14,145 nt of DNA from a virus, in the UHGV virus genome UHGV-0225651; one strand, given 5' to 3'. A model generated the notes under the pieces. That model did no database searches and was not told where the DNA came from. It saw only the letters and a list, made by a program, of their open reading frames with translations. How positions within the stretch are numbered: position 1 is the first letter of the stretch; each line of letters begins with the position of its first letter. The translations under genes and the position numbers were made by a program. Below are positions 1 through 14,145 of the stretch, one piece after another.

Positions 1-300
1 CCTATAGAGAGTATCATAGCTAACATAGAGATTAAGAGGTGTATAGGAGCTTCTAAGAGTGTATAGAGAGATGGTTAAGGTGATTGTATAGGTTGTTAAG
101 AAGGCTTGTTAGAGGGCTTGTTAGAAGGGTTATACAGAGGGCTATTAAGACCACTAGATAGATACTAAGATACTATATAGTACTATATAACTATATATAG
201 AGAGTAAGCTTAAGAAGGTTGTTAAGAAGGGTAGATATTTTGTTCACATATGATGGTGACCCAGAGGTTGGGACAACCGATAAAATTTTATAAAAAATAT
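1..300. repeat. Non-coding repeat region with degenerate direct repeats (iteron-like); possible origin or regulatory region
   Basis: Direct repeats of (C/G)TTGTTA(A)GA(A/G)GG at about 91-104, 105-116, 117-129 and 212-230; TATAGAGAG three times (about 5-13, 63-70, 197-205); ACTATATA-type repeats at 171-200. Plus strand is almost devoid of C. No ORF. Confidence 0.5.
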
Positions 301-320
301 AAATTTCGTAAATTTTACTC

Positions 321-347
321 AATAAAAAGCCCCCAATTAAGGAGGCT
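321..347 (-). terminator. Rho-independent terminator closing the minus-strand operon
   Basis: On the minus strand: stem AGCCTCC, loop TTAATT, stem GGGGGCT (7 bp with one G-U), followed by TTTTATT; sits 12 nt downstream of the stop of the 359..982 gene. Confidence 0.6.
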
Positions 348-358
348 CTTAAGATATT

Positions 359-982
359 TTAAATCAGTGTTTCCAGAACTGTTTTTAATGATGACTTGGT
401 TGTCTGATAAAAATGAGTAAAGCCATTGTTGTTATCAAATACCTGCATCATGATATCATCTCCCTTGATTGGGTACACTCGGATATCATAGTGAAAACCA
501 TTAAAGACACAAGAGCCATTACAGAATGCACTAAAGTCATCAACTGAGATATACTCTTCATGTCCTGTGATTTTTATACAAACACCTTTACTCGGTCTCT
601 TAGGGTTGATATCTTCCATCACAGACATACTCTGTCCACCAAGAGATACCATAGTGACCACTTTACGATTCTTCTGTCTAAAGTACATTTTAACTTTCTG
701 CAAAGTGTCTTCATAGAACGGATAAGACCTTTCTACAAAGATTCCTTCAAGTGGCTCTTTACCATTTTCAACTTCTCTGTTATGCCGTACTGCAAAGATA
801 ATTTGTTCGAACCAGTCAAGATTTTCTTCGGAGAGTGCTTCCCGAACATCCTTCCAGTCAAGTACTAAGTAGTTACCTTCAACTTCTTTTAAGTTATCTT
901 TTTCCATATCTATCACACCATTATCGTAAAACTTGATATTCTGGTACTGCGAATTTATTACTATTGTTCTTGATGAGGTCAT
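359..982 (-). CDS. Hypothetical protein (207 aa as listed)
   Basis: Long ORF on the operon strand. The listed start overlaps the upstream gene by 62 nt; an internal Met (MEKDNLKEV, start near 907) may be the true start. Confidence 0.55.
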   Translation of the reverse strand: MTSSRTIVINSQYQNIKFYDNGVIDMEKDNLKEVEGNYLVLDWKDVREALSEENLDWFEQIIFAVRHNREVENGKEPLEGIFVERSYPFYEDTLQKVKMYFRQKNRKVVTMVSLGGQSMSVMEDINPKRPSKGVCIKITGHEEYISVDDFSAFCNGSCVFNGFHYDIRVYPIKGDDIMMQVFDNNNGFTHFYQTTKSSLKTVLETLI

Positions 983-1385
983 CCTCTGAAACTAAAAATG
1001 TAATACCACATAAGTGTCTGTAACGACTATCATACTCGAATATCTTAAACAGATATTTACCATCATGATAAACCTGTTGCACTTCACCTTCTGCAACAAT
1101 CTCGCCTGTAATAAAATTTTTTAGTTTATACACATTACCAACTTTAGGTACTGTTTTCATCTCAGGCTCTTTTAGTGCTACACCTATTTTTGCATCACCG
1201 AGTAAATGAGAACTCTCAAAAGCTACGTGTTTCATATAGGCTTCTGAGCATTCCCAAATAAAACAATGTACAAGAACCTTAGCAGCATGTCTTGAGCAGT
1301 TCAACTTATCACAAATTTCTGTGTACATCTCATCTTTAGTAGAATTGTCAAGCATTGCTCTTTGCACTACTTCTTTAATTTTCAT
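921..1385 (-). CDS. Hypothetical protein (154 aa)
   Basis: ORF on the operon strand; its start overlaps the stop of the upstream gene by 11 nt (translational coupling). Confidence 0.6.
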   Translation of the reverse strand: MKIKEVVQRAMLDNSTKDEMYTEICDKLNCSRHAAKVLVHCFIWECSEAYMKHVAFESSHLLGDAKIGVALKEPEMKTVPKVGNVYKLKNFITGEIVAEGEVQQVYHDGKYLFKIFEYDSRYRHLCGITFLVSEDDLIKNNSNKFAVPEYQVLR

Positions 1386-1797
1386 AAGCTCTCCGAATAA
1401 CCCTATTAAGCATCTCTAAAGTCAGCTTTCCAGATTCTAAATGCGGCATAACAAGCTTTAAAGCTTTTTCAACATCATGCACAATATCAATTATACCTTC
1501 TTCATAGGCTTCTACGAGGATATCTTTTACACAGATATAGCCTTCATTGATAAGGATTTGCATATCAAAATCTTTTGATTGCTTGTTTAACTTACCTCTC
1601 CAATACCCATCAGCATTAAAAGATATCACTTCACACTCTTTAAAATCCATATCATCTGCATTGAATGGAGTAATTATTGTGCATTGGATTGGGTACTCTA
1701 CACCAGTGGTGTCAACATCAAAAACCTTCACAGAAGTGAGTGGTTTCTTTGTTTTAGAGCAGTAAACTGTCAATCTTTTACCAATAAGCTCTTTCAT
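1375..1797 (-). CDS. Hypothetical protein (140 aa)
   Basis: ORF on the operon strand with compact spacing; no motif recognised. Confidence 0.6.
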   Translation of the reverse strand: MKELIGKRLTVYCSKTKKPLTSVKVFDVDTTGVEYPIQCTIITPFNADDMDFKECEVISFNADGYWRGKLNKQSKDFDMQILINEGYICVKDILVEAYEEGIIDIVHDVEKALKLVMPHLESGKLTLEMLNRVIRRAYEN

Positions 1798-1849
1798 TTC
1801 GCTACCTTCTAAGTTTCTACAAAGGGGCTATCAAGTAACCCCTAAGTTA

Positions 1850-2074
1850 TTACTCAGACTTTTCAGTCTTCTTATCGGATTTCTTACTAGTCTTCTTCTC
1901 AGCTTTCTGTTCAGGTTCCTTCTCAGAAGTTGCCTTGATAACCATATCAAGAAGCTCTGATAAGTCACTCTTCAGCAAAGTAACAGGCTGCTCATTGTAG
2001 AAGTTTTTGTCAAGATAAACTTTAAACTCTTCTATAGAAGGAAATCCAAAAATTGGTACAGGTGTCTTAATCAT
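1850..2074 (-). CDS. Hypothetical small protein (74 aa) with Lys/Glu-rich C-terminal tail
   Basis: ORF on the operon strand; C-terminus KAEKKTSKKSDKKTEKSE is low-complexity and basic. Confidence 0.5.
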   Translation of the reverse strand: MIKTPVPIFGFPSIEEFKVYLDKNFYNEQPVTLLKSDLSELLDMVIKATSEKEPEQKAEKKTSKKSDKKTEKSE

Positions 2075-2150
2075 TACTTAGTCTCTCCATAGGCATCTTT
2101 TAAGATTGCCTTGTTAATCATTTCAGCGATTGCAAAACGAACACATACAG

Positions 2151-2684
2151 CTATAATTGTAGGTTGCATTCTTTACTTACCTCTTCAAGTTTAACCTCAG
2201 AATCCTTAAGTCGTTTCTTATGAACTCTGAACCTCATTAGTGAGATGATGATACCAGCTAAAGGAACAACATACAAGTACCAGACATCATGCAACTTTGC
2301 AGTAATCTGTGTAATGGTCAAGTCTTGAGCTATGTAGCTGATTGCTGATACAGCTAGTAATGTTGCTAAGAAGAAAACCAGTATCATAACAATATTCAGA
2401 CAACCTCTGGCATGGTATTCATGCTTAATGCACTTATTCTTCTCTTCAACAACCCTGTTGTAGTCATTTGTAAAGTCTCTGTAGAAAGCTTTTAAGTATT
2501 CTTGAGTGTAGCCTTCAAAGCAACCTGTACCGTACCAATAATCACCACCAAAATGTGCTATGATACCAGTATCCCCATTTGGTTTGGTTACTCTTAGTGA
2601 AGTATGATGACCAGTCTTCTGATAATCTATCTTGTATCTTTCTTCGTAAATCATTTCCCAACCCCTCTCAATCGTTTGTTCCAC
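2151..2684 (-). CDS. Hypothetical membrane protein (soluble N-terminal domain plus one hydrophobic segment)
   Basis: Hydrophobic stretch LNIVMILVFFLATLLAVSAISYIA in the translated ORF. The listed start overlaps the upstream ORF by 34 nt; an alternative start at MIYEERYK (near 2654) would give an ATGA-type junction. Confidence 0.55.
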   Translation of the reverse strand: MEQTIERGWEMIYEERYKIDYQKTGHHTSLRVTKPNGDTGIIAHFGGDYWYGTGCFEGYTQEYLKAFYRDFTNDYNRVVEEKNKCIKHEYHARGCLNIVMILVFFLATLLAVSAISYIAQDLTITQITAKLHDVWYLYVVPLAGIIISLMRFRVHKKRLKDSEVKLEEVSKECNLQL

Positions 2685-2869
2685 TCAAGGTCAACAAGTC
2701 TTTGCAGGACTTTCCCTCTAGGTGTTACACCTTTTAAATCTGCATCGTAGCAACGGTAAAAGTCACCTTCAGCGTGTTTACCGTAGCATTTTCTGATATT
2801 CTGGCTCCTACGATACTGCTCTAACAGGGACAGTTTGTAGTAGTCTTCAACTGTAGTTAGTTTTTTCAT
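2651..2869 (-). CDS. Hypothetical small protein (72 aa)
   Basis: ORF on the operon strand; 4-nt overlap with the upstream gene at 2866-2869. Confidence 0.45.
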   Translation of the reverse strand: MKKLTTVEDYYKLSLLEQYRRSQNIRKCYGKHAEGDFYRCYDADLKGVTPRGKVLQRLVDLEWNKRLRGVGK

Positions 2870-3411
2870 TCTTTCACCATAGCGTTTCTGAACTGGCGTT
2901 GTGTTTCTCTTGTAATTTCGTTTGGAGTAAACCCTGCTTTTAGCATATCTCTGAAAAGAACTTCTAAATGGTTCCTCTCAATGATGTAAATAGCATTCTG
3001 AATAGCTGTTTTTCGCTCCTTCAGGTCACTACTAATCTCTTCGCACTTACTGGTAAGTTCTGTATCAACTTTCTTATAGACTGGCATAACATGTGCGTAG
3101 CAACCTTTATTAGTCTCCATGAAAAATTTAAAAGATTCTTCAGAGTCCTTTAGAGCAATCCCTATAAAGTTTTTGTAAGCACCTGTGAAAGATAAGGAAT
3201 CAATCTCAGCAGTTGAGTATACAGTCCCTGCACACAGTCTTGCAGAAGTACTGAATGTGTGATTTGGTGTTGTGTCAAAGTCTAAATTCTTCAGTGGTCG
3301 GAAATAAACTGTACCATTGTGTGAGATGTGTGTTACAACAGCCTCAACACTCTTTGAAGGATTCTGTTTAACATACAAAATAATTTTATCGTGCTCTTTC
3401 ACTTTAGCCAT
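2866..3411 (-). CDS. Hypothetical protein (181 aa)
   Basis: ORF on the operon strand; no motif recognised. Confidence 0.6.
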   Translation of the reverse strand: MAKVKEHDKIILYVKQNPSKSVEAVVTHISHNGTVYFRPLKNLDFDTTPNHTFSTSARLCAGTVYSTAEIDSLSFTGAYKNFIGIALKDSEESFKFFMETNKGCYAHVMPVYKKVDTELTSKCEEISSDLKERKTAIQNAIYIIERNHLEVLFRDMLKAGFTPNEITRETQRQFRNAMVKE

Positions 3412-3483
3412 AACTATTCTCCAGAAACTAAAAAGGGAACTACCTCTCGATAGCTCCCATCATAGTCAATATTGTATACTCGG

Positions 3484-4065
3484 TCAAGAGTATTTTTTAG
3501 GCAGTAATGCACTGCGCTTGTTACTCTCTTCACTCAATAGTGCAATGAAATCATCACTTTTACCTTTCCACGGGCTGAATGAAGGTATGTGTTCACGGAT
3601 AGCCTCAATCACTGTCTTAAGTGCTGTGTTCTTCATCCACCAATCAGAATCTGCTGATGCTACCACGTAGTATCCACCGTCATCAGTTAAAATTGGCTCT
3701 GAGATACATGGTGAAATCAAAGTGGTGATGATTGAACCATTGTTCATGTAGTATGTGCGTTTCATAACCTTTTCAAGAAGCTTGTGAAGGTCACCAAACA
3801 ATGTTACAAGCTCTTTATGGTCAATATCTTTTTCGAGGTTTGCTCGATACTTCAAGAGTGCAGCATCAACCTCTCTGTCATTAAACTTGAAATATTGAAC
3901 TTCTTCCACAAGGCAAACACTGATGTTGTTAACGTTCATAGTCAACTTACAAACTTTTACAGGAGAGTTGATATTTGGTTGAAAAAGTGCAATACACCCT
4001 TCAATATTTCCAAAATGTTGTACCAGTGTTACTTGTGGAGTAATATTCTGTTGCTCTTCGGACAT
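3484..4065 (-). CDS. Hypothetical protein (193 aa)
   Basis: ORF on the operon strand; TAATG stop/start overlap with the upstream gene at 4065. Confidence 0.6.
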   Translation of the reverse strand: MSEEQQNITPQVTLVQHFGNIEGCIALFQPNINSPVKVCKLTMNVNNISVCLVEEVQYFKFNDREVDAALLKYRANLEKDIDHKELVTLFGDLHKLLEKVMKRTYYMNNGSIITTLISPCISEPILTDDGGYYVVASADSDWWMKNTALKTVIEAIREHIPSFSPWKGKSDDFIALLSEESNKRSALLPKKYS

Positions 4066-4409
4066 TACAGTTTCCTCATTAAATACTTTTTAAGTTGTGT
4101 GTTAGGTTTCTCAAAAACTTCTATAGAAGATATCTTGACAGATTCACCACGCATACCTGTATGTTTGAATATGTAATACTCTAACATCCCTATATACTTT
4201 GCTGGTAAGTCATATTTTACATACACCGTCACAGAATCTTCAAACTCAACAACCTTTGTACCATCTTTGTAGTTAAACTCTTTAGGATGGTTGTAGTTGT
4301 CTATGTCATACATTAAAAAGAGTCTTTTCCGTTGCATATCAAGCTTGTTTGTTAAAGACTCTTTGATATCTGAGAAGTTTTTGTACACTGTGACATGGAG
4401 CTTACTCAT
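4065..4409 (-). CDS. Hypothetical protein (114 aa)
   Basis: ORF on the operon strand, translationally coupled on both sides. Confidence 0.6.
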   Translation of the reverse strand: MSKLHVTVYKNFSDIKESLTNKLDMQRKRLFLMYDIDNYNHPKEFNYKDGTKVVEFEDSVTVYVKYDLPAKYIGMLEYYIFKHTGMRGESVKISSIEVFEKPNTQLKKYLMRKL

Positions 4410-4695
4410 CGTTAAACTCTCTGACGAAGAAATAGTTGACTTTGTTATTACCTACCATAAGGTCAAAGCAGGTATTTTCAAAAGGTTTGTTATAGGCATC
4501 ATATGAAACGTATGTATCAGCTACTTGCTTAGTGCTTAACTTCTTACTTGATGGGTTTAAGAGGCCACCATATAGTTTCTTGATAGCCTCTTCTACAACA
4601 GACCATATGATTTCGTCAGTAATTTCTTCGTACAGGTCAAGTTCACGCTCTAGTGAGAAGTCACAAATAGGGAAAATAACCTGTACTTTACTCAT
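4402..4695 (-). CDS. Hypothetical protein (97 aa)
   Basis: ORF on the operon strand; overlapping start and stop with neighbours. Confidence 0.55.
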   Translation of the reverse strand: MSKVQVIFPICDFSLERELDLYEEITDEIIWSVVEEAIKKLYGGLLNPSSKKLSTKQVADTYVSYDAYNKPFENTCFDLMVGNNKVNYFFVREFNDE

Positions 4696-5090
4696 TAACG
4701 AATAACCTGTGAGACTTGAATTGCTTCAGTTACTGACAAATCACCAACTTTCTCTTCTTTGATAAAAGTGAAGGTGAGTTCAACAGGCTCTTGCTCTTCT
4801 TGCTCAACTGGAACACCATTAAGCTCATCAAAGATTGATTGAGTTGTCCAGTCTTCTCCACCATCTGGATAGTGGATTGCATAAAGAGGAAACTCTAAAT
4901 TATACCAAGCAAAAACAGGGCAACCATCGGCATCATCTCGGCATCTGTGGAGATATGTGTTTGTACCTTCAAAATGCAAATGCAGATTGCCATTCTTCTC
5001 AAATAGAAGAGCATCTTGCAGGTCTAGCTCATCATTTTCGCTGTAACGACTAACATCAACTTTAACGTGGATATGACTGTTATTATTCAT
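4695..5090 (-). CDS. Hypothetical acidic protein (131 aa)
   Basis: ORF on the operon strand; Asp/Glu-rich. Confidence 0.6.
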   Translation of the reverse strand: MNNNSHIHVKVDVSRYSENDELDLQDALLFEKNGNLHLHFEGTNTYLHRCRDDADGCPVFAWYNLEFPLYAIHYPDGGEDWTTQSIFDELNGVPVEQEEQEPVELTFTFIKEEKVGDLSVTEAIQVSQVIR

Positions 5091-5481
5091 AAAAACCTCT
5101 CTCTGCTTGTTCGATTTTTGCTCTTAAAGCTTCGCAATGTTGTAAATGGTAGTTAGCTTCTTGTTCATGTGTTGCTAACTGCCTTTCAAGAACAGTTTTA
5201 TAATAACTTGCGAGTTGCTCTTTTGTCAATGGGTGTTCTGAAATAATATCAAGTCCACTTTCACCAAGAGGGTTGAATTGCCCATGTTCATTGACATTGT
5301 AAGTCTCAAACTTGAAGAGGCCATTGTTCACAGACTCAATAGGTGACAGTTCAACAAGCTCTACAGTAAACCGTGTATACACCTTGTCGCCTCTTGAAAC
5401 CACATTGTTTCCGACAATGCGTACAAGCGAGCCATTACGAGTGTACTTAAAAGTTCCAAAGTCACTAGCCCAAAGTTTCAT
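5083..5481 (-). CDS. Hypothetical protein (132 aa)
   Basis: ORF preceded on the minus strand by AAGGAG about 7 nt upstream of the ATG, directly after the 5491-5523 terminator. Confidence 0.6.
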   Translation of the reverse strand: MKLWASDFGTFKYTRNGSLVRIVGNNVVSRGDKVYTRFTVELVELSPIESVNNGLFKFETYNVNEHGQFNPLGESGLDIISEHPLTKEQLASYYKTVLERQLATHEQEANYHLQHCEALRAKIEQAERGFYE

Positions 5482-5490
5482 AGTTTTCTC

Positions 5491-5523
5491 CTTAGAAAAT
5501 AAAAAAGGCTCCCGAAGGAGCCT
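5491..5523 (-). terminator. Rho-independent terminator (or attenuator) downstream of the endolysin gene
   Basis: Perfect 7-bp stem AGGCTCC/GGAGCCT (5506-5512 and 5517-5523) with CGAA loop; on the minus strand it is followed by TTTTTTATTTT and then the RBS of the next gene. Confidence 0.65.
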
Positions 5524-5532
5524 ATGAAGATA

Positions 5533-5997
5533 TTACTTTGGATATACACTGTCAAGATAAATGTTAGCTTCCATTCTACGTCTGTTTTTCAGTCCGTTTG
5601 AAGTAACCTTCTCACCTTTGACTGTAATCTTGTTCCACCACTGCATAGCTTCTGCACAACCTACCTTATTACCAGCATTGTGGCGCTTGATAAATGTAGA
5701 GTCCTGCATAGCTGTGATACCGATGTTGTATGTTTCACTTACAAGTGCGTCGAACTCATTCTGAGAAGTGGGAACCTTGATAGCTTTGTTCACTGCTGCA
5801 ACAAACTTTTCAACATCTGTGAGAAGATACTGTTCAGCTTGTGCAGCCGTGATTTTCATACCCATCTTAACAGGTTTTCCGTCAATACGGATTGTACCAT
5901 ACCCGATTGTTGGGATTCCGGCAGAATCTTTGTAAGCCTCAAGCTTAAGACCTTCAAAGAACTTAATAGCTTCTAAACCTTTTCTTGAGAGTTGCAT
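5533..5997 (-). CDS. Endolysin, GH24 phage lysozyme (P22 gp19-like muramidase)
   Basis: The translation has the hallmark N-terminal block EGLKLEAYKDSAGIPTIGYG and resembles P22 gp19 along its length as I recall that sequence (blocks such as ITA-E, NQNxFDAL, YNIG and a C-terminal RRR patch). Start ATG overlaps the stop of the upstream gene (ATGA). Confidence 0.9.
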   Translation of the reverse strand: MQLSRKGLEAIKFFEGLKLEAYKDSAGIPTIGYGTIRIDGKPVKMGMKITAAQAEQYLLTDVEKFVAAVNKAIKVPTSQNEFDALVSETYNIGITAMQDSTFIKRHNAGNKVGCAEAMQWWNKITVKGEKVTSNGLKNRRRMEANIYLDSVYPK

Positions 5998-7130
5998 TAT
6001 GCCTCCCCTGCTGGGTTAACTGTAACTGTTGCTGCATTAGATGTTACAGAGCCACCTGCACCAGTAACTACACAAGTGTAGCTTCCTGCATCAGCAGTGG
6101 TTGCACCTTCTTTGGTGTAAGTTGCAGCAGTTGCATCGAGGATGTCTTCCTCACCTTTCTTCCACTGGTAACCTGTTGCACCTGTTGCCACAACATTCAG
6201 TGTTAAAGTCTCACCTTCAGTGATTTCTTGATTGGTTGGCTGTTGAGTGATTACCGGAAGTGCGTTAACAATAACCGTTGCAGGGCTAGAAGTGACAGAA
6301 CCACCTGCACCTGTTACAACGCAAGCGTATGAACCTGCATCTGCTGGCAGAGCACCAGACTTGCTATAGGTAGCATTTGTCGCTGAAGGAATGTCAGAGC
6401 CATCTTTCTTCCATTGGTAACCGGTTGCACCAGTTGCAGTAACTGCTAAGTTGATGTTTCCACCTTCATTAATAGTCTGGTTAGAAGGTTGCTTGGTAAT
6501 CACAGGTAGTGCGTTCACAGTCACTGTTGCTGCATCTGAGGTAACACTTGTTCCACCCTCTCCAGATACAACACAAGTGTATGAACCAGCGTCAGAAGGT
6601 GCTACTGACTGTTTTGTGTAAGTTGCAGAATTGGCACTAGGGATATCCTCACCATCCTTCTTCCACTGATATCCAGTGGCGTTAGTTGCTAGAATGCTTA
6701 GAGTAAGTGTGCCACCTTCATTTACTGTTTGATTGGTTGGTTGCTGAGTGATTGCTGGTGGCTTGATAGCATCCTTCAACTTAGCATTCAGCATTGAGAA
6801 TGGTTTAACTCTTGCCAGCCATTCACAATAAACTGTATCAACGTCTTTACCATTGATAATTGCATATTGTAAGTCCATGAAGAAATCAGCAGTTCTCATC
6901 TGTGCACCAACACTGTAAAGCAATTCATCACTAAATGGAACTTTGTAGTCTGGTTTGTAGTCAAACTTCTCAACTTCTGCAATATCAGCTTCAGGCCAAT
7001 ATGAACTATAGGTAAGTGGTAAAATAGCCTCTTGATATGTTCTAAAATCATATCTCTTACCAGCCTTTACATTTGCAATGAAACCCTTCACAAACTCTTT
7101 GAAGTCTGGGTAAGTCTTTGCTTTAATCAT
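5997..7130 (-). CDS. Two-part protein: N-terminal domain (about 125 aa) paralogous to the upstream gene, plus three tandem Ig-like repeats
   Basis: Three repeats of about 84 aa (roughly 6000-6755) of the form QQPTNQT-NEGG-L-L-ATGATGYQWKKDG-DIPSA-ATY-DAGSY-CVV-G-GG-VTS-ATVTVNALPVI, an Ig-like signature. The N-terminal region aligns with the 7127..7498 product. Confidence 0.8.
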   Translation of the reverse strand: MIKAKTYPDFKEFVKGFIANVKAGKRYDFRTYQEAILPLTYSSYWPEADIAEVEKFDYKPDYKVPFSDELLYSVGAQMRTADFFMDLQYAIINGKDVDTVYCEWLARVKPFSMLNAKLKDAIKPPAITQQPTNQTVNEGGTLTLSILATNATGYQWKKDGEDIPSANSATYTKQSVAPSDAGSYTCVVSGEGGTSVTSDAATVTVNALPVITKQPSNQTINEGGNINLAVTATGATGYQWKKDGSDIPSATNATYSKSGALPADAGSYACVVTGAGGSVTSSPATVIVNALPVITQQPTNQEITEGETLTLNVVATGATGYQWKKGEEDILDATAATYTKEGATTADAGSYTCVVTGAGGSVTSNAATVTVNPAGEA

Positions 7131-7498
7131 TTCTTTTCAGCCTCTAAATGTGCGTTTAGTCTAAAATAACCTTTGTGATTCGGAGATACATCACCAACGA
7201 CAATACCTTTAACCTTATAACCTTTACCAATTACATACTGGATATCCATAAGGAATCTTCCAAGACCAACAATATGGAACATTGGGTATAATAGATTCTC
7301 AGAGTCTGGAATATTGATTTCAGGTTTGTAGGTACGCTGTTCGATTGTTGGTGTAATATCTTCTTCAGGCCATTTACTGAGTCTCCATGTCAAAGGTGTT
7401 GGGATAACATCATTAAGGTTGTACCTTTCACCATTTTGCACGGAATTGATATAGGATTGTAGGAAGCAATAAAAGTCTTTTGCACTCTTAGCTTTCAT
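7127..7498 (-). CDS. Hypothetical protein (123 aa), stand-alone paralogue of the N-terminal domain of the Ig-repeat protein
   Basis: Shared blocks with the downstream protein: MKAKSAKDFYCFLQSYINSVQNGERYN vs MIKAKTYPDFKEFVKGFIANVKAGKRYD, WPEEDI vs WPEADI, FLMDIQYVI vs FFMDLQYAI. AAGGA RBS upstream; ATGA overlap with the downstream gene. Confidence 0.65.
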   Translation of the reverse strand: MKAKSAKDFYCFLQSYINSVQNGERYNLNDVIPTPLTWRLSKWPEEDITPTIEQRTYKPEINIPDSENLLYPMFHIVGLGRFLMDIQYVIGKGYKVKGIVVGDVSPNHKGYFRLNAHLEAEKK

Positions 7499-7521
7499 TA
7501 AATATCCTTATAAATAGTTAA

Positions 7522-7537
7522 AGGGGCATAAGCCCCT
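7522..7537 (-). terminator. Intergenic hairpin, possibly a weak terminator or processing site
   Basis: Stem AGGGGC/GCCCCT with ATAA loop between the 7546..8136 and 7127..7498 genes; followed on the minus strand by a T-rich but interrupted tract (TTAACTATTTAT). Confidence 0.35.
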
Positions 7538-7545
7538 ATTCACAC

Positions 7546-8136
7546 TTAAGCTTTGGTCTTAAGTAGGTTCTTAAGTTTTTTAAGATTCATACTCTCATCA
7601 AACTTAAAACCAAATCCATTGACATAATCAATGAACTCGGATTTCTTACTGAGTGACAATGCGTAACTCATATCAAAGTTCTTACTTGTTTCTGCATCTG
7701 GACTAGAGTTCACATCAAATGAAATTTCCGTAGGCTCTTGCTTACTTTTTCTCATATTATCAACCAACAAACATGTATAGTTTGCTGGATAGAAATTTAC
7801 ACTACCATCAACGTAGCTGTACTTATTATTATGGATAAGGTTGGAAAATACCTTAAGGAATGTTTCTGAGTCGTGGCAAACAAGTTTGAATTGGCTGCTC
7901 TCTCCAAGCGCAACTAATGAATACGGACTTTCACTATCAAAGTCATAATTTGGATTAGATGCCGTCACTGTTACACGCATCAAGTTATTAGCAATAGTCT
8001 TCTGTTTAAAAGAATTTTGAACATAGTGAAGACCTCTATCACACTGATTGACTAGCTCTTTAAGAAGGTCATTTGCATATGGTGAATTAATTGATACAGA
8101 GCCATCACTATTGTAATTAAAACTTACTGTTAACAT
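7546..8136 (-). CDS. Hypothetical protein (196 aa)
   Basis: ORF on the operon strand with GGAGA RBS about 8 nt upstream of the ATG. Confidence 0.6.
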   Translation of the reverse strand: MLTVSFNYNSDGSVSINSPYANDLLKELVNQCDRGLHYVQNSFKQKTIANNLMRVTVTASNPNYDFDSESPYSLVALGESSQFKLVCHDSETFLKVFSNLIHNNKYSYVDGSVNFYPANYTCLLVDNMRKSKQEPTEISFDVNSSPDAETSKNFDMSYALSLSKKSEFIDYVNGFGFKFDESMNLKKLKNLLKTKA

Positions 8137-8363
8137 TTTTCAGTTCTCCTGCGATTTATAATTTTGCTGCAATAGAGAAACGAAGTAAACTCACTGGAAG
8201 AAACCATTAAGTGTTGTTCACTAGATTGAGCCATTGCCCTGAAATACATTCCAGTCAAAGCATCATAGTGACTATTCTTTCCAATTGAGGTTATATAGCC
8301 ATGACTCTTTGCAGTTTGATATAAATCTATAATATCTGCGATTTCTAATTGGGAACTACACAT
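8130..8363 (-). CDS. Hypothetical small protein (77 aa)
   Basis: ORF on the operon strand with AGAGGA upstream of the ATG; overlaps both neighbours by a few nt. Confidence 0.45.
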   Translation of the reverse strand: MCSSQLEIADIIDLYQTAKSHGYITSIGKNSHYDALTGMYFRAMAQSSEQHLMVSSSEFTSFLYCSKIINRRRTEKC

Positions 8364-13681: not shown

Positions 13682-13756
13682 ACTCGCTTAGTTTATATGG
13701 TAAAGCATCACCCTTACAAGATGAAGAAAAAGGTTCAAGTCCTTTAGCGAGCACCA
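13682..13756 (+). tRNA. tRNA-Val (anticodon TAC)
   Basis: Acceptor ACTCGCT/AGCGAGC (A1/C72 unpaired); anticodon loop CTTACAA flanked by stem TCACC/GATGA (one mismatch); T-arm AAAGG-TTCAAGT-CCTTT; CCA encoded. Confidence 0.7.
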
Positions 13757-13757
13757 T

Positions 13758-13835
13758 GTTCCAGTATCCCAATTGGCAGAGGATGCAAGCTCAAACCTTG
13801 TACTAGTGACGGTTCGAATCCGTCTTGGAACACCA
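13758..13835 (+). tRNA. tRNA with anticodon CAA (Leu-type) but short variable arm
   Basis: Acceptor GTTCCAG/TTGGAAC; D-stem ATCC/GGAT; anticodon stem GCAAG/CTTGT with loop CTCAAAC; T-arm GACGG-TTCGAAT-CCGTC; CCA encoded. Confidence 0.65.
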
Positions 13836-13840
13836 ATTTT

Positions 13841-13916
13841 GCAGGATTAGTTCAAATGGATAGAGCAACAGTCTACGAAGCTGTTAATAGGGGTTCGAAT
13901 CCCTTATCCTGCGCCA
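13841..13916 (+). tRNA. tRNA-Arg (anticodon ACG)
   Basis: Acceptor GCAGGAT/ATCCTGC; D-stem GTTC/GAGC; anticodon loop CTACGAA; T-loop GGTTCGAATCC; CCA encoded. Confidence 0.85.
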
Positions 13917-13934
13917 GATAAGCAAGAGGAATTT

Positions 13935-14145
13935 ATGCAAACATTAATCGTCGTTGAACATGAAAATCCCAATAGTATTGAGTTTGTAAGGGTTCCCACT
14001 ATAGATACCCACATTTTCTTGAAAGTCGGATGGGAATGCGACCCAATAAAAGTAGAAAGATTTATTGGTCATTGCTTTGGTGGAAGACAACTTAAAAGCA
14101 TCAATTTTGAGACAATGTTACCAGAAAGCTCAGAAACAAATAATA
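13935..14145 (+). CDS. Hypothetical protein, 5' partial ORF running off the window edge (MQTLIVVEHENPNSIEFVRVPTIDTHIFLKVGWECDPIKVERFIGH...)
   Basis: ATG at 13935 preceded by AGAGGA about 7 nt upstream; open frame with no stop to 14145; begins 19 nt after the last tRNA. Not in the supplied ORF track, presumably because it is incomplete. Confidence 0.5.
   Translation, partial: MQTLIVVEHENPNSIEFVRVPTIDTHIFLKVGWECDPIKVERFIGHCFGGRQLKSINFETMLPESSETNN

What the first reader, a model, noticed from the sequence alone, without database searches (positions are those of the whole stretch)
1..300. Iteron-like repeat region with extreme strand composition skew at the end of the leftward operon
The first 300 nt have no ORF, almost no C on the plus strand, and contain three to five copies of (C/G)TTGTTA(A)GA(A/G)GG plus repeated TATAGAGAG and ACTATATA units. 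Related short motifs (GCTTCTAAGAG, CTTGTT, TTAGAAG) recur in tRNA spacers at about 12483-12496 and 13090-13165. This pattern fits a replication origin, a packaging site, or a cluster of binding sites for a phage regulator; the window edge cuts it, so more may lie upstream.
Basis: seen in the sequence. Interest (0 to 1): 0.5.

Follow-up and report, generated by a model that had tools for sequence, protein, structure and literature searches.

The report
Repeat array beside phage terminal repeat
The repeats at the start of the window are real: they are the inner tail of a roughly 1.1-kb array of about 30 copies of a 7-base motif that fills and flanks the direct terminal repeat of a Felix O1-like phage, so they most likely belong to the signal that marks where replicated DNA is cut and packaged.

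Summary
Window 1-240 has 7.9% C, the lowest in the window. It holds four copies of (C/G)TTGTTA(A)GARGG, three of TATAGAGAG and three of ACTATATA, all far above shuffled expectation.

The window comes from a Felixounavirus (97.8% identical to phage XTG1). Positions 1-358 are only the right end of a roughly 1.7-kb gene-free region between convergent operons. That region contains the virion's direct terminal repeat (DTR). Four GenBank records carry exact DTRs of 579-694 bp with identical end sequences. The DTR ends about 257 bp left of window position 1.

In the whole genome of phage ZX4221, the core heptamer YTGTTAR occurs 27 times in one orientation from inside the DTR to window position 230. 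Copies are about one helical turn apart (distances 11, 20-22, 31, 42 bp). Background is about 1 per kb. Three inverted copies sit at the DTR's left edge, so both genome ends, read inward, begin G..CCCTTAACA.

The architecture is kept in four Ounavirinae genera and is more conserved than the flanking genes. Phage T7 has an analogous array (CCTAAAG, 13 copies).

Best reading: a protein-binding lattice for generating the ends and packaging the DNA. This is inferred, not shown. An iteron-type origin is not supported but not excluded. The recurrence in tRNA spacers is not above chance.

The parts
1..240 (+). G-rich, C-poor repeat block. It is the distal (gene-proximal) part of the left-unique non-coding flank of the direct terminal repeat, about 850-1090 bp from the left physical end of the virion DNA.
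   Evidence: Composition. Position relative to the DTR by homology to radambza L002 (DTR = 4131-4744, window position 1 = 5001) and to ZX4221 (DTR 1-591, window position 1 = about 848). At most positions of window 1-296, at least 96% of 25 Felixounavirus junctions carry the window's base.
92..128 (+). Three tandem 12-13-bp units, GTTGTTAAGAAGG / CTTGTTAGAGGG / CTTGTTAGAAGG. They are distal members of the YTGTTAR heptamer array. Copy number varies between relatives.
   Evidence: The same positions in ZX4221 are junction coordinates 1444, 1457 and 1469. More than 20% of relatives have an extra 12-bp unit after window position 114.
218..230 (+). Last copy of the heptamer array (GTTGTTAAGAAGG), just before the AT-rich and terminator segment.
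   Evidence: Kept in 24 of 25 relatives. Counterparts: GTTAAGAAGGG in mistaenkt, TGTTTAGAAGGG in KMM2, and four GTTAAG(R)(R)G copies in phiEa21-4.
3..204 (+). Second motif family, TATAGAGAG / TATACAGAG / CATAGAGAT / TATAGGAGC, at 3-11, 24-32, 42-50, 62-70, 131-139 and 196-204. It runs forward here and in the DTR, and reverse-complemented (CTCTATAG) on the far side of the DTR.
   Evidence: TATAGAG occurs 6 times in the 1.7-kb junction against 3 times in the remaining 87 kb, both strands counted. Orientation read.
158..204 (.). TA-rich segment with three ACTATATA copies (172-179, 182-189, 190-197) and a (TA)n run whose length differs between relatives.
   Evidence: The longer (TA)n in ZX4221 is visible in the alignment.
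286..296 (+). TTTTATAAAAA, one of only two copies of this 11-mer in the related 89-kb genome. The other lies 73 bp inside the DTR's right boundary, so the pair brackets the G-rich block.
325..350 (-). Rho-independent terminator of the leftward operon (AAGAGCCTCCTTAATTGGGGGCTTTT on the minus strand).
   Evidence: Conserved in four genera.
359..982 (-). Last gene of the leftward operon (207 aa, unknown function, phrog_4330). It marks the inner limit of the gene-free junction region.
   Evidence: Homologues are only 47-56% identical in protein in Mooglevirus and Suspvirus.

Best explanation
Window 1-300 is the inner tail of the concatemer-junction region of a Felix O1-like myovirus.

In replicating DNA the order is: rightward early operon and its terminators; about 0.4-0.5 kb of C-rich 'right-unique' spacer; the direct terminal repeat (DTR, about 580-690 bp); about 0.6 kb of G-rich 'left-unique' spacer, whose last 350 bp are the start of this window; then the terminator and last gene of the leftward operon.

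About 30 copies of the heptamer YTGTTAR lie in one orientation, about one helical turn apart or multiples of it. They run from 65 bp inside the DTR's left edge to window position 230. Three inverted copies sit at the DTR's left edge. Each of the two cuts that create virion ends therefore falls 3-5 nt beyond the G-run of a TGTTAAGGG copy.

The most likely mechanism is that a sequence-specific, oligomerising DNA-binding protein coats one face of this DNA. The still unidentified small terminase, or an accessory packaging factor, is the obvious candidate. The coated DNA would mark the junction in concatemers and position the large terminase for the two boundary cuts. [quoted passage not shown]

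Shown: the location, the array, its phasing, its confinement to the junction, the relation of the ends to the motif, and its conservation.
Inferred: that a protein binds the array, which protein it is, and that the purpose is packaging.
For: 1. Identity. The window is 97.8% identical to Felixounavirus XTG1 and 95% to wV8.
2. Termini. Four independent GenBank records have exact DTRs: ZX4221 591 bp, NBSal004 694 bp, I14.1 581 bp, CRP22 579 bp. All four share the same end motifs: the left end starts 5'-GCCCCCTTAACAT and the right end finishes TGTTAAGGGCTACC-3'.
3. Published termini agree. UAB_Phi87 has a 608-bp DTR by Bal31 digestion plus run-off sequencing (PMC4837284). PhageTerm gives 581 bp for Pr103Blw (PMC8303462) and 613 bp for Ro111lw (PMC6454146).
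4. The array. TGTTAR occurs 27 times forward plus 3 times reversed at the DTR's left edge, all within 1.1 kb, against about 1 per kb elsewhere. CTTGTTAG occurs 8 times in the junction against 2 times in 87 kb on both strands.
5. Phasing. 14 of 26 consecutive spacings are 9-13 bp, against 2.7 expected at random. Pair distances peak at 11, 20-22, 31 and 42 bp.
6. Dyad at the left end. Arms at 6-35 and 75-104 form a 30-nt inverted repeat, 70% complementary.
7. Conservation within the genus. 80% of motif columns are invariant against 67% of non-motif columns.
8. Conservation between genera. The junction is 84-89% identical to Mooglevirus KMM2 and Suspvirus mistaenkt, while the flanking genes are 74-76% identical in DNA and 47-56% in protein.
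9. Erwinia phage phiEa21-4 (Kolesnikvirus) has the same layout, including the block AAGCAGATATACA just outside the right boundary.
10. Analogy computed directly. The T7 junction carries 13 CCTAAAG heptamers in one orientation across its right-unique spacer, 160-bp repeat and left-unique spacer, with strong strand skew.
Against: - No binding protein is identified. Genes next to the array and upstream of the large terminase have no recognisable DNA-binding or small-terminase domain. The only lead is a 123-aa DUF5681 protein at 8756-9127. It gave a low-confidence model (pLDDT 67) and no significant fold match.
- The copies inside the window lie 350-490 bp from the nearest cut site, which is far for a cleavage-positioning role.
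- In Mooglevirus KMM2 the window-region copies are degenerate, while the copies inside the DTR are kept.
- One Kolesnikvirus (SunLIRen) was reported as 'headful' by PhageTerm (PMC6256631), so DTR packaging is not established for the whole subfamily.
- The function of the T7 arrays themselves is not established (from memory), so the analogy does not carry a proven mechanism.
- DTR ends in GenBank records may be off by a few bases.
Confidence: 0.5

Rival explanations
1. Replication origin. The heptamers are iterons for a phage initiator, and the TA-rich segment (window 158-204), or the AT-rich stretch at 280-325, is the DNA-unwinding element.
For: - Directly repeated, helically phased sites lie next to easily melted TA-rich DNA.
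- The region is gene-free and strongly conserved.
- Most relatives have a relaxed DnaA box, TTATTCACA, at window position about 246-254, and a second, inverted copy sits left of the DTR.
- The phage encodes its own polymerase and primase/helicase, but no origin has been mapped (PMC3185647).
Against: - Cumulative GC skew follows transcription direction only. Its extrema are at about 8-9, 41 and 52 kb, not at the junction.
- The repeat unit is a 7-bp core on an 11-12-bp period, not a 17-22-bp iteron.
- No initiator-like protein is adjacent.
- DnaA-box-like 9-mers are not enriched: 32 occur genome-wide at up to 1 mismatch.
- This reading does not explain why inverted motif copies coincide with both virion ends.
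Confidence: 0.15
2. A binding array for a protein that is not part of the packaging machinery. Possible roles: a roadblock or insulator that stops converging transcription or replication from running across the junction; protection of the ends from exonucleases; or pairing of terminal repeats to form concatemers.
For: - The array lies between two converging operons, each with its own terminator.
- It occupies the terminal repeat, which is the substrate for end-to-end joining.
- Motif polarity reverses at the DTR's left boundary.
- In T7 the junction carries a sequence-specific polymerase pause signal, ATCTGTT (bioRxiv 2021.01.11.426313). That string occurs 3 times in the DTR here.
Against: - Both flanking operons already have intrinsic terminators.
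- The phage has no T7-type RNA polymerase (PMC3185647).
- No candidate protein is known.
- These roles do not by themselves predict that the cuts fall at a fixed distance from motif copies.
Confidence: 0.2
3. A non-coding RNA is transcribed from the G-rich strand of window 1-300.
For: - The strand skew is opposite to that of the neighbouring genes.
- The many purine-rich AAGAAGG/AAGAGG strings resemble ribosome-binding sites.
Against: - No Rfam family matches.
- Folding energy is no better than shuffles on either strand (z = -0.23 and -0.68).
- No promoter is conserved across genera upstream. The TTGATA/TTGACA seen in some genomes is absent in KMM2, and promoter-like hits are not above the shuffle expectation.
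Confidence: 0.05
4. Functionless repeats made by replication slippage in a spacer that is free to drift.
For: - The 12-bp tandem changes copy number between relatives, and the (TA)n run varies in length.
- In KMM2 the window copies are degenerate.
Against: - The region is more conserved than the flanking genes across three genera, and its architecture persists in a fourth.
- At least 96% of 25 genomes share the window's base at most positions of 1-296.
- Slippage does not explain about 30 dispersed, phased copies of one heptamer with variable spacers.
Confidence: 0.05

Closest known systems
Short-repeat arrays at the phage T7/T3 concatemer junction (SRL and SRR of Dunn & Studier 1983; names from memory, array recomputed)
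   Same: - A short exact, non-permuted terminal repeat.
- A conserved heptamer repeated more than 10 times in one orientation with variable spacers, spanning the repeat and both unique flanks.
- Non-coding DNA with strong local strand skew (the T7 left flank has 30 G in 260 nt; this window has 19 C in 240 nt).
   Different: - The motif is different (YTGTTAR against CCTAAAG), and there is no sequence homology.
- The host phage is a myovirus of a different family without its own RNA polymerase.
- The array is about four times longer and lies mostly inside a roughly 600-bp repeat.
- The copies are phased by the helical turn.
- Inverted copies bracket the repeat, so both ends read inward alike. 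This is not seen in T7.
- The function of the T7 arrays is itself unsettled.
Terminase recognition sites built from short repeats (lambda cosB R sites, SPP1 pacL/pacR boxes, P1 pac hexamers; from general knowledge)
   Same: Several short, oriented, phased repeats flank the point where the terminase cuts. They would be expected to be bound by a small-terminase oligomer that bends or wraps the DNA.
   Different: - Those sites have 3-7 repeats within 100-200 bp. Here there are about 30 copies over 1.1 kb.
- The binding protein is unknown, and no small terminase is recognisable in this phage group.
- P1 pac depends on GATC methylation, whereas this genome has no GATC at all.
Iteron-type replication origins of plasmids and lambdoid phages
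   Same: Clustered direct repeats next to AT-rich DNA in a gene-free region.
   Different: - The unit is shorter (7-bp core, 11-12-bp period).
- There are far more copies.
- No adjacent initiator gene is present.
- There is no skew extremum at the site.
- The array coincides with the virion ends.
Centromere-like arrays bound by small dimeric proteins (for example R1 parC with two sets of five 11-bp repeats; from general knowledge)
   Same: Direct repeats with an 11-bp period arranged in two opposed sets, as at the left end of the terminal repeat. Such arrays are known to assemble a continuous protein-DNA filament.
   Different: This is a virulent phage with no partition genes recognised. The context is genome ends rather than a promoter. 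The resemblance is one of architecture only.

Membership tests
T7-type concatemer-junction short-repeat array | Lies within or next to an exact, non-permuted short direct terminal repeat | tested here: met
   Exact DTRs of 579-694 bp in four relatives share the same end motifs (GCCCCCTTAACAT at the left end, TGTTAAGGGCTACC at the right). Window position 1 is about 257 bp from the right boundary. Experimental DTR of 608 bp in UAB_Phi87 (PMC4837284). The termini of the phage in this window itself were not measured.
T7-type concatemer-junction short-repeat array | At least 10 copies of one conserved heptamer in a single orientation with variable spacers, in non-coding DNA | tested here: met
   27 forward TGTTAR copies in 1.1 kb, four of them in the window. 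T7 has 13 CCTAAAG copies. No annotated genes lie in the region.
T7-type concatemer-junction short-repeat array | Strong local strand-composition skew | tested here: met
   C is 7.9% over window 1-240. 100-nt GC skew reaches +0.72 and, on the far side of the DTR, -0.70. The T7 left flank has 30 G in 260 nt.
T7-type concatemer-junction short-repeat array | Sequence relationship to the T7/T3 arrays, and a phage-encoded single-subunit RNA polymerase acting at the junction | tested here: not met
   The heptamer is different. Felix O1 encodes no RNA polymerase of its own (PMC3185647). The resemblance is therefore one of architecture, not common descent.
Terminase recognition (pac/cos-type) site | Repeats located at the cleavage sites that create the virion ends | tested here: met
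   Left end: 5'-GCCCCCTTAACA. Right end: TGTTAAGGGCTACC-3'. A motif copy lies 3-5 nt from each end in four records. This holds for the array as a whole; the window's own copies are 350-490 bp from the cut.
Terminase recognition (pac/cos-type) site | Specific binding by the small terminase, and a requirement for packaging | not testable with these tools
   No small terminase is recognisable. The DUF5681 candidate is inconclusive.
Iteron-type replication origin | Tandem iterons of about 17-22 bp | tested here: not met
   The unit is a 7-bp core on a 9-13-bp spacing.
Iteron-type replication origin | Adjacent or overlapping initiator gene | tested here: not met
   Neighbouring proteins match only families of unknown function.
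Iteron-type replication origin | Adjacent AT-rich unwinding element and DnaA boxes | tested here: inconclusive
   A TA-rich stretch at 158-204 and an AT-rich stretch at 280-325 exist. One relaxed DnaA box is present in relatives, but such boxes are not enriched.
Iteron-type replication origin | Genome-wide skew extremum or switch at the site | tested here: not met
   In ZX4221 the skew tracks gene orientation, with extrema at about 8-9, 41 and 52 kb.
3' untranslated region of the leftward operon | Lies between the stop codon and the terminator of the transcript | tested here: not met
   The stop codon is at 359 and the terminator at 350-325 on the minus strand. Region 1-300 is downstream of the terminator.
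Known RNA family | Match to an Rfam model, or folding better than shuffles | tested here: not met
   No Rfam match in the region. z-scores are -0.23 and -0.68.

The most novel reading that the evidence does not exclude
One heptamer lattice both fills the terminal repeat and, through inverted copies at its two edges, defines where the ends are cut. A single DNA-binding protein would then measure out the repeat, mark the concatemer junction for the terminase, and continue about 500 bp into the left arm, including window 92-230. This would be a terminus-defining mechanism not described for any short-DTR phage, and it would give a functional handle on the long-unexplained T7-type junction arrays.
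Probability: 0.25. Interest if true: 0.6.

Novelty: new variant of a known kind. Interest (0 to 1): 0.4.

Why it matters
Felix O1-like phages are widely used for Salmonella and E. coli typing, biocontrol and therapy. Their short terminal repeats are known, but I found no description of what specifies them. The genus papers I could read (Felix O1, wV8, UAB_Phi87) do not mention the array.

How short-DTR phages recognise the concatemer junction and duplicate the repeat is poorly understood, even in T7.

A defined, conserved array of about 30 phased copies, with motif copies abutting both cut sites, gives concrete sites to mutate. It also gives a bait for finding the missing small terminase or another junction-binding protein.

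On the practical side, it tells annotators where these genomes should be opened. It also warns that engineering insertions into this 'empty' 1.7-kb region may hit the packaging signal.

Tried and rejected
- Rfam on the junction and on the whole window found nothing in the region.
- RNA folding of both strands of 1-300 was no better than shuffles.
- Sigma-70 promoter scans gave hits at or below the shuffle expectation, and none was conserved across genera.
- Looking for the junction in possible satellites or hosts found no meaningful match. The 5,426 E. coli genomes gave one 37-nt hit, and the PLSDB plasmids gave none.
They were uninformative.
- The search for a binding protein failed. PHROGs and Pfam on seven genes of the leftward operon and on three genes upstream of the large terminase gave only unknown-function families. 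Further genes gave the same, apart from a tail protein and an RNA-binding protein.
- The 244-aa DUF7217 protein has no PDB relative.
- The 123-aa DUF5681 protein was modelled at pLDDT 67, and Foldseek found no PDB match below E = 1.
- DnaA-box and IHF-site scans showed no enrichment.
- The UAB_Phi87 record held in the collection is an older version opened in the tRNA region, so its experimentally mapped ends could not be compared directly.
- The KMM2 record's 64-bp end overlap falls in the middle of the DTR homologue. I took it to be an assembly overlap, not the physical end.
- Literature searches for the T7 SRL/SRR arrays found nothing usable in the held library. That comparison therefore rests on my own recomputation and on memory of Dunn & Studier 1983.

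Full report
**What is in the window.** Positions 1-240 are purine-rich and C-poor on the plus strand: C is 19 of 240, the lowest of any 240-nt stretch in the window. GC skew over 1-300 is +0.47, opposite in sign to the adjoining leftward genes.
- [CG]TTGTTA(A)GA[AG]GG at 92-104, 105-116, 117-128 and 218-230.
- TATAGAGAG at 3-11, 62-70 and 196-204, with close variants at 24-32, 42-50 and 131-139.
- ACTATATA at 172-179, 182-189 and 190-197.

All are far above dinucleotide-shuffle expectation. For example, the 12-mer family occurs 4 times against 0.00 expected. There is no credible ORF. The leftward operon ends with the gene at 359-982 and a terminator at 350-325 on the minus strand. Region 1-300 therefore lies beyond the terminator and is not a 3' UTR.

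**Where it comes from.** The window is a Felixounavirus: 97.8% identical to phage XTG1 and about 95% to wV8. In annotated relatives, window 1-358 is the last fifth of a 1.6-1.7-kb gene-free region. That region lies between a rightward block of small genes and the leftward operon.

**The terminal repeat.** Several GenBank records of relatives start 850-950 bp upstream of window position 1. Four of them, from different laboratories, carry exact direct terminal repeats:

| Record | DTR length (bp) |
|---|---|
| ZX4221 | 591 |
| NBSal004 | 694 |
| I14.1 | 581 |
| CRP22 | 579 |

All four share the same end motifs. The left end starts 5'-GCCCCCTTAACAT and continues with two further CTTAACAA copies; CRP22 differs at a few bases after position 13. 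The right end finishes TGTTAAGGGCTACC-3'.

Published work agrees. UAB_Phi87 has a 608-bp repeat by Bal31 digestion and run-off sequencing (PMC4837284). PhageTerm gives 581 bp for Pr103Blw (PMC8303462) and 613 bp for Ro111lw (PMC6454146). The Felix O1 paper says only that the phage 'possesses short terminal repeats' (PMC3185647).

By homology, the repeat's right boundary is about 257 bp left of window position 1. The finding therefore occupies roughly positions 850-1150 from the left physical end of the virion DNA.

**The array.** I assembled the whole ZX4221 genome (89,258 bp) and compared the junction with the rest.
- The heptamer core TGTTAR, usually preceded by C or T, occurs 27 times forward within 1,025 bp. 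It starts 65 bp inside the repeat and ends at the copy equivalent to window 218-230.
- 19 of these copies are inside the repeat.
- Three reversed copies, 11 bp apart, sit at the repeat's left edge.
- Elsewhere the motif occurs about once per kb per strand. CTTGTTAG occurs 8 times in the junction against 2 times in the other 87 kb on both strands.
- 14 of 26 consecutive spacings are 9-13 bp, against 2.7 expected at random. All pair distances cluster at 11, 20-22, 31 and 42 bp, which are multiples of the helical repeat.

The window's four copies are the distal tail of this array.

A second family (TATAGAG/TATACAG) runs forward in the repeat and the window. It is reverse-complemented on the far side of the repeat. 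The two unique flanks accordingly have opposite skew: -0.70 and +0.72 in 100-nt windows.

**Ends and motif.** Read inward from either terminus, the DNA begins G..CCCTTAACA. This is GCCCCCTTAACA at the left end and GGTAGCCCTTAACA at the right. The repeat is thus bracketed by inverted TGTTAAGGG copies, and each cut falls 3-5 nt beyond the G-run. The first 104 nt also form an imperfect dyad: 30-nt arms that are 70% complementary, made of three copies in each orientation. Immediately outside the right boundary, AAGCAGATATACA is invariant in all four genera examined.

**Conservation.**
- Among 25 Felixounavirus junctions (about 90% identical overall), 80% of motif columns are invariant against 67% of non-motif columns.
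- At most positions of window 1-296, at least 96% of genomes carry the window's base. The exceptions are a 12-bp unit that comes and goes after position 114 and a variable (TA)n run.
- Against Mooglevirus KMM2 and Suspvirus mistaenkt, the junction is 84-89% identical. The flanking genes are 74-76% identical in DNA and 47-56% in protein. The two figures come from local and global alignments respectively, so the gap is somewhat inflated.
- Erwinia phage phiEa21-4 (Kolesnikvirus) has the same plan in its 1.2-kb gap between gp31 and gp32. It has three reversed copies, a forward TGTTAAG array, the AAGCAGATATACA block, and four G-rich GTTAAG(R)(R)G copies just before the leftward terminator, which is the counterpart of the window's copies.
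- In KMM2 the window-region copies are degenerate while the copies inside the repeat are kept.

**What it most likely does.** The motif is confined to the junction. It is phased on one face of the helix, it abuts both cut sites, and the whole region is under stronger constraint than its neighbours. These facts point to a lattice of binding sites for an oligomerising protein that marks the concatemer junction and positions the terminase.

This is an inference: no binding protein is identified. The neighbouring genes and those upstream of the large terminase match only families of unknown function. The 123-aa DUF5681 protein at 8756-9127 carries an invariant KG..N..GRP.G..N motif. It gave a low-confidence helical model with no significant fold match, so it is only a lead.

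**Closest known.** I recomputed the T7 junction. It has 13 CCTAAAG heptamers in one orientation across the right-unique flank, the 160-bp repeat and the left-unique flank, and the left flank is G-poor. These are the SRL/SRR arrays of Dunn and Studier (names from memory).

The architecture matches. The motif, the phage family, the scale, the helical phasing and the inverted bracketing differ. T7 also has the polymerase pause signal ATCTGTT at its repeat's right edge (bioRxiv 2021.01.11.426313). The same string occurs three times in the repeat here, as a subset of the heptamer. This phage has no T7-type polymerase (PMC3185647), so I treat that as coincidence.

**Rivals.**
- *Iteron origin.* This is not excluded, because TA-rich DNA is adjacent and relatives have one relaxed DnaA box. 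But genome-wide skew follows gene direction only. The unit is too short for a classical iteron, no initiator gene is nearby, and an origin would not explain the end-motif relation.
- *Non-packaging binding role* (roadblock, end protection or repeat pairing). This remains possible.
- *Non-coding RNA.* Disfavoured.
- *Neutral slippage.* Disfavoured.

**The tRNA-spacer motifs.** These are not above chance. Part of that 'spacer' is a tRNA that ARAGORN missed.

**Novelty and verdict.** The terminal repeat is known for the genus. I found no description of the heptamer array, its phasing or its relation to the ends in the papers I could read. GenBank annotations mark only a few generic 'repeat_region' features.

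It is a new variant of a known kind of feature. Interest is moderate.

Noticed in passing
whole window 1-14145; also L001-L003, L008+L009 (ZX4221 whole genome), L032-L034, L037: GATC is completely absent. The window has 0 against about 50 expected. The 89-kb ZX4221 genome has 0 against 314 expected. The first 45 kb of Erwinia phage phiEa21-4 has 0 against 169. Other 4-base palindromes are present (CTAG 145, TCGA 104).
   Followed up: partly
window 12511-12589 (+) and about 12737-12818 (+): Rfam calls a tRNA at 12511-12589 (31.7 bits) that ARAGORN did not list. A second tRNA-like stretch ending ...GGTTCAACTCCTCCGTCCCATGCCA lies at about 12737-12818 and was called by neither tool. The 'tRNA spacers' named in the finding are therefore not all spacer.
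   Followed up: partly
window 9209-10624 (+): A 471-aa protein matching phrog_850 ('RNA-binding protein') sits directly upstream of the 18-tRNA cluster. A preprint on the related phage Bas63 describes the corresponding gp130 as Ro60-like and suggests that some of the 'tRNAs' may be Y-RNA-like partners (bioRxiv 2024.10.10.617714).
   Followed up: no
window 8756-9127 (+): This is the first gene of the rightward morphogenesis block. It encodes a 123-aa DUF5681 protein with a basic N-terminal motif (K12 G13 N17 G20 R21 P22 G24 N27 invariant in 28 homologues) followed by a helical hairpin. The AlphaFold model has pLDDT 67, and no PDB fold match has E below 1. It is a possible small-terminase candidate, but nothing supports this yet.
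   Followed up: partly
window 286-296; ZX4221 (L008) 664 and 1155: The 11-mer TTTTATAAAAA occurs only twice in the 89-kb genome. Both copies are in the left-unique spacer and bracket the G-rich block (73 bp after the DTR, and just before the leftward terminator).
   Followed up: partly
window about 246-254; ZX4221 (L008) 1109: Most relatives read TTATTCACA here, a perfect match to the relaxed DnaA-box consensus. This window reads TTGTTCACA. An inverted copy lies about 95 bp left of the DTR. Such 9-mers are not enriched genome-wide (32 at up to 1 mismatch).
   Followed up: partly
window 114/115 and about 190-200: There is length polymorphism between close relatives. An extra 12-bp TTGTTAGARGGC unit is present after position 114 in more than 20% of 25 genomes, and the (TA)n run varies in length. 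The window also carries about 25 extra bases at 297-325 that are absent from most Felixounavirus junctions but present in Mooglevirus KMM2.
   Followed up: partly
L037 (phiEa21-4) 16560-16920: In the Erwinia phage the right-unique flank carries at least 15 copies of a different C-rich motif, (C/T)TTCTAA(G/A). In Felixounavirus the same flank has CTCTAAAACG/CTCTATAG repeats. The far flank thus has its own repeat family, one that changes between genera.
   Followed up: no
GenBank record PP892526 (L278, L279): Phage vB_EcoM_I14.1 is a Felixounavirus by sequence (same ends, same junction), but its record's taxonomy line files it under Demerecviridae/Tequintavirus. One 'Staphylococcus' record also appears among the Felixounavirus hits.
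   Followed up: no
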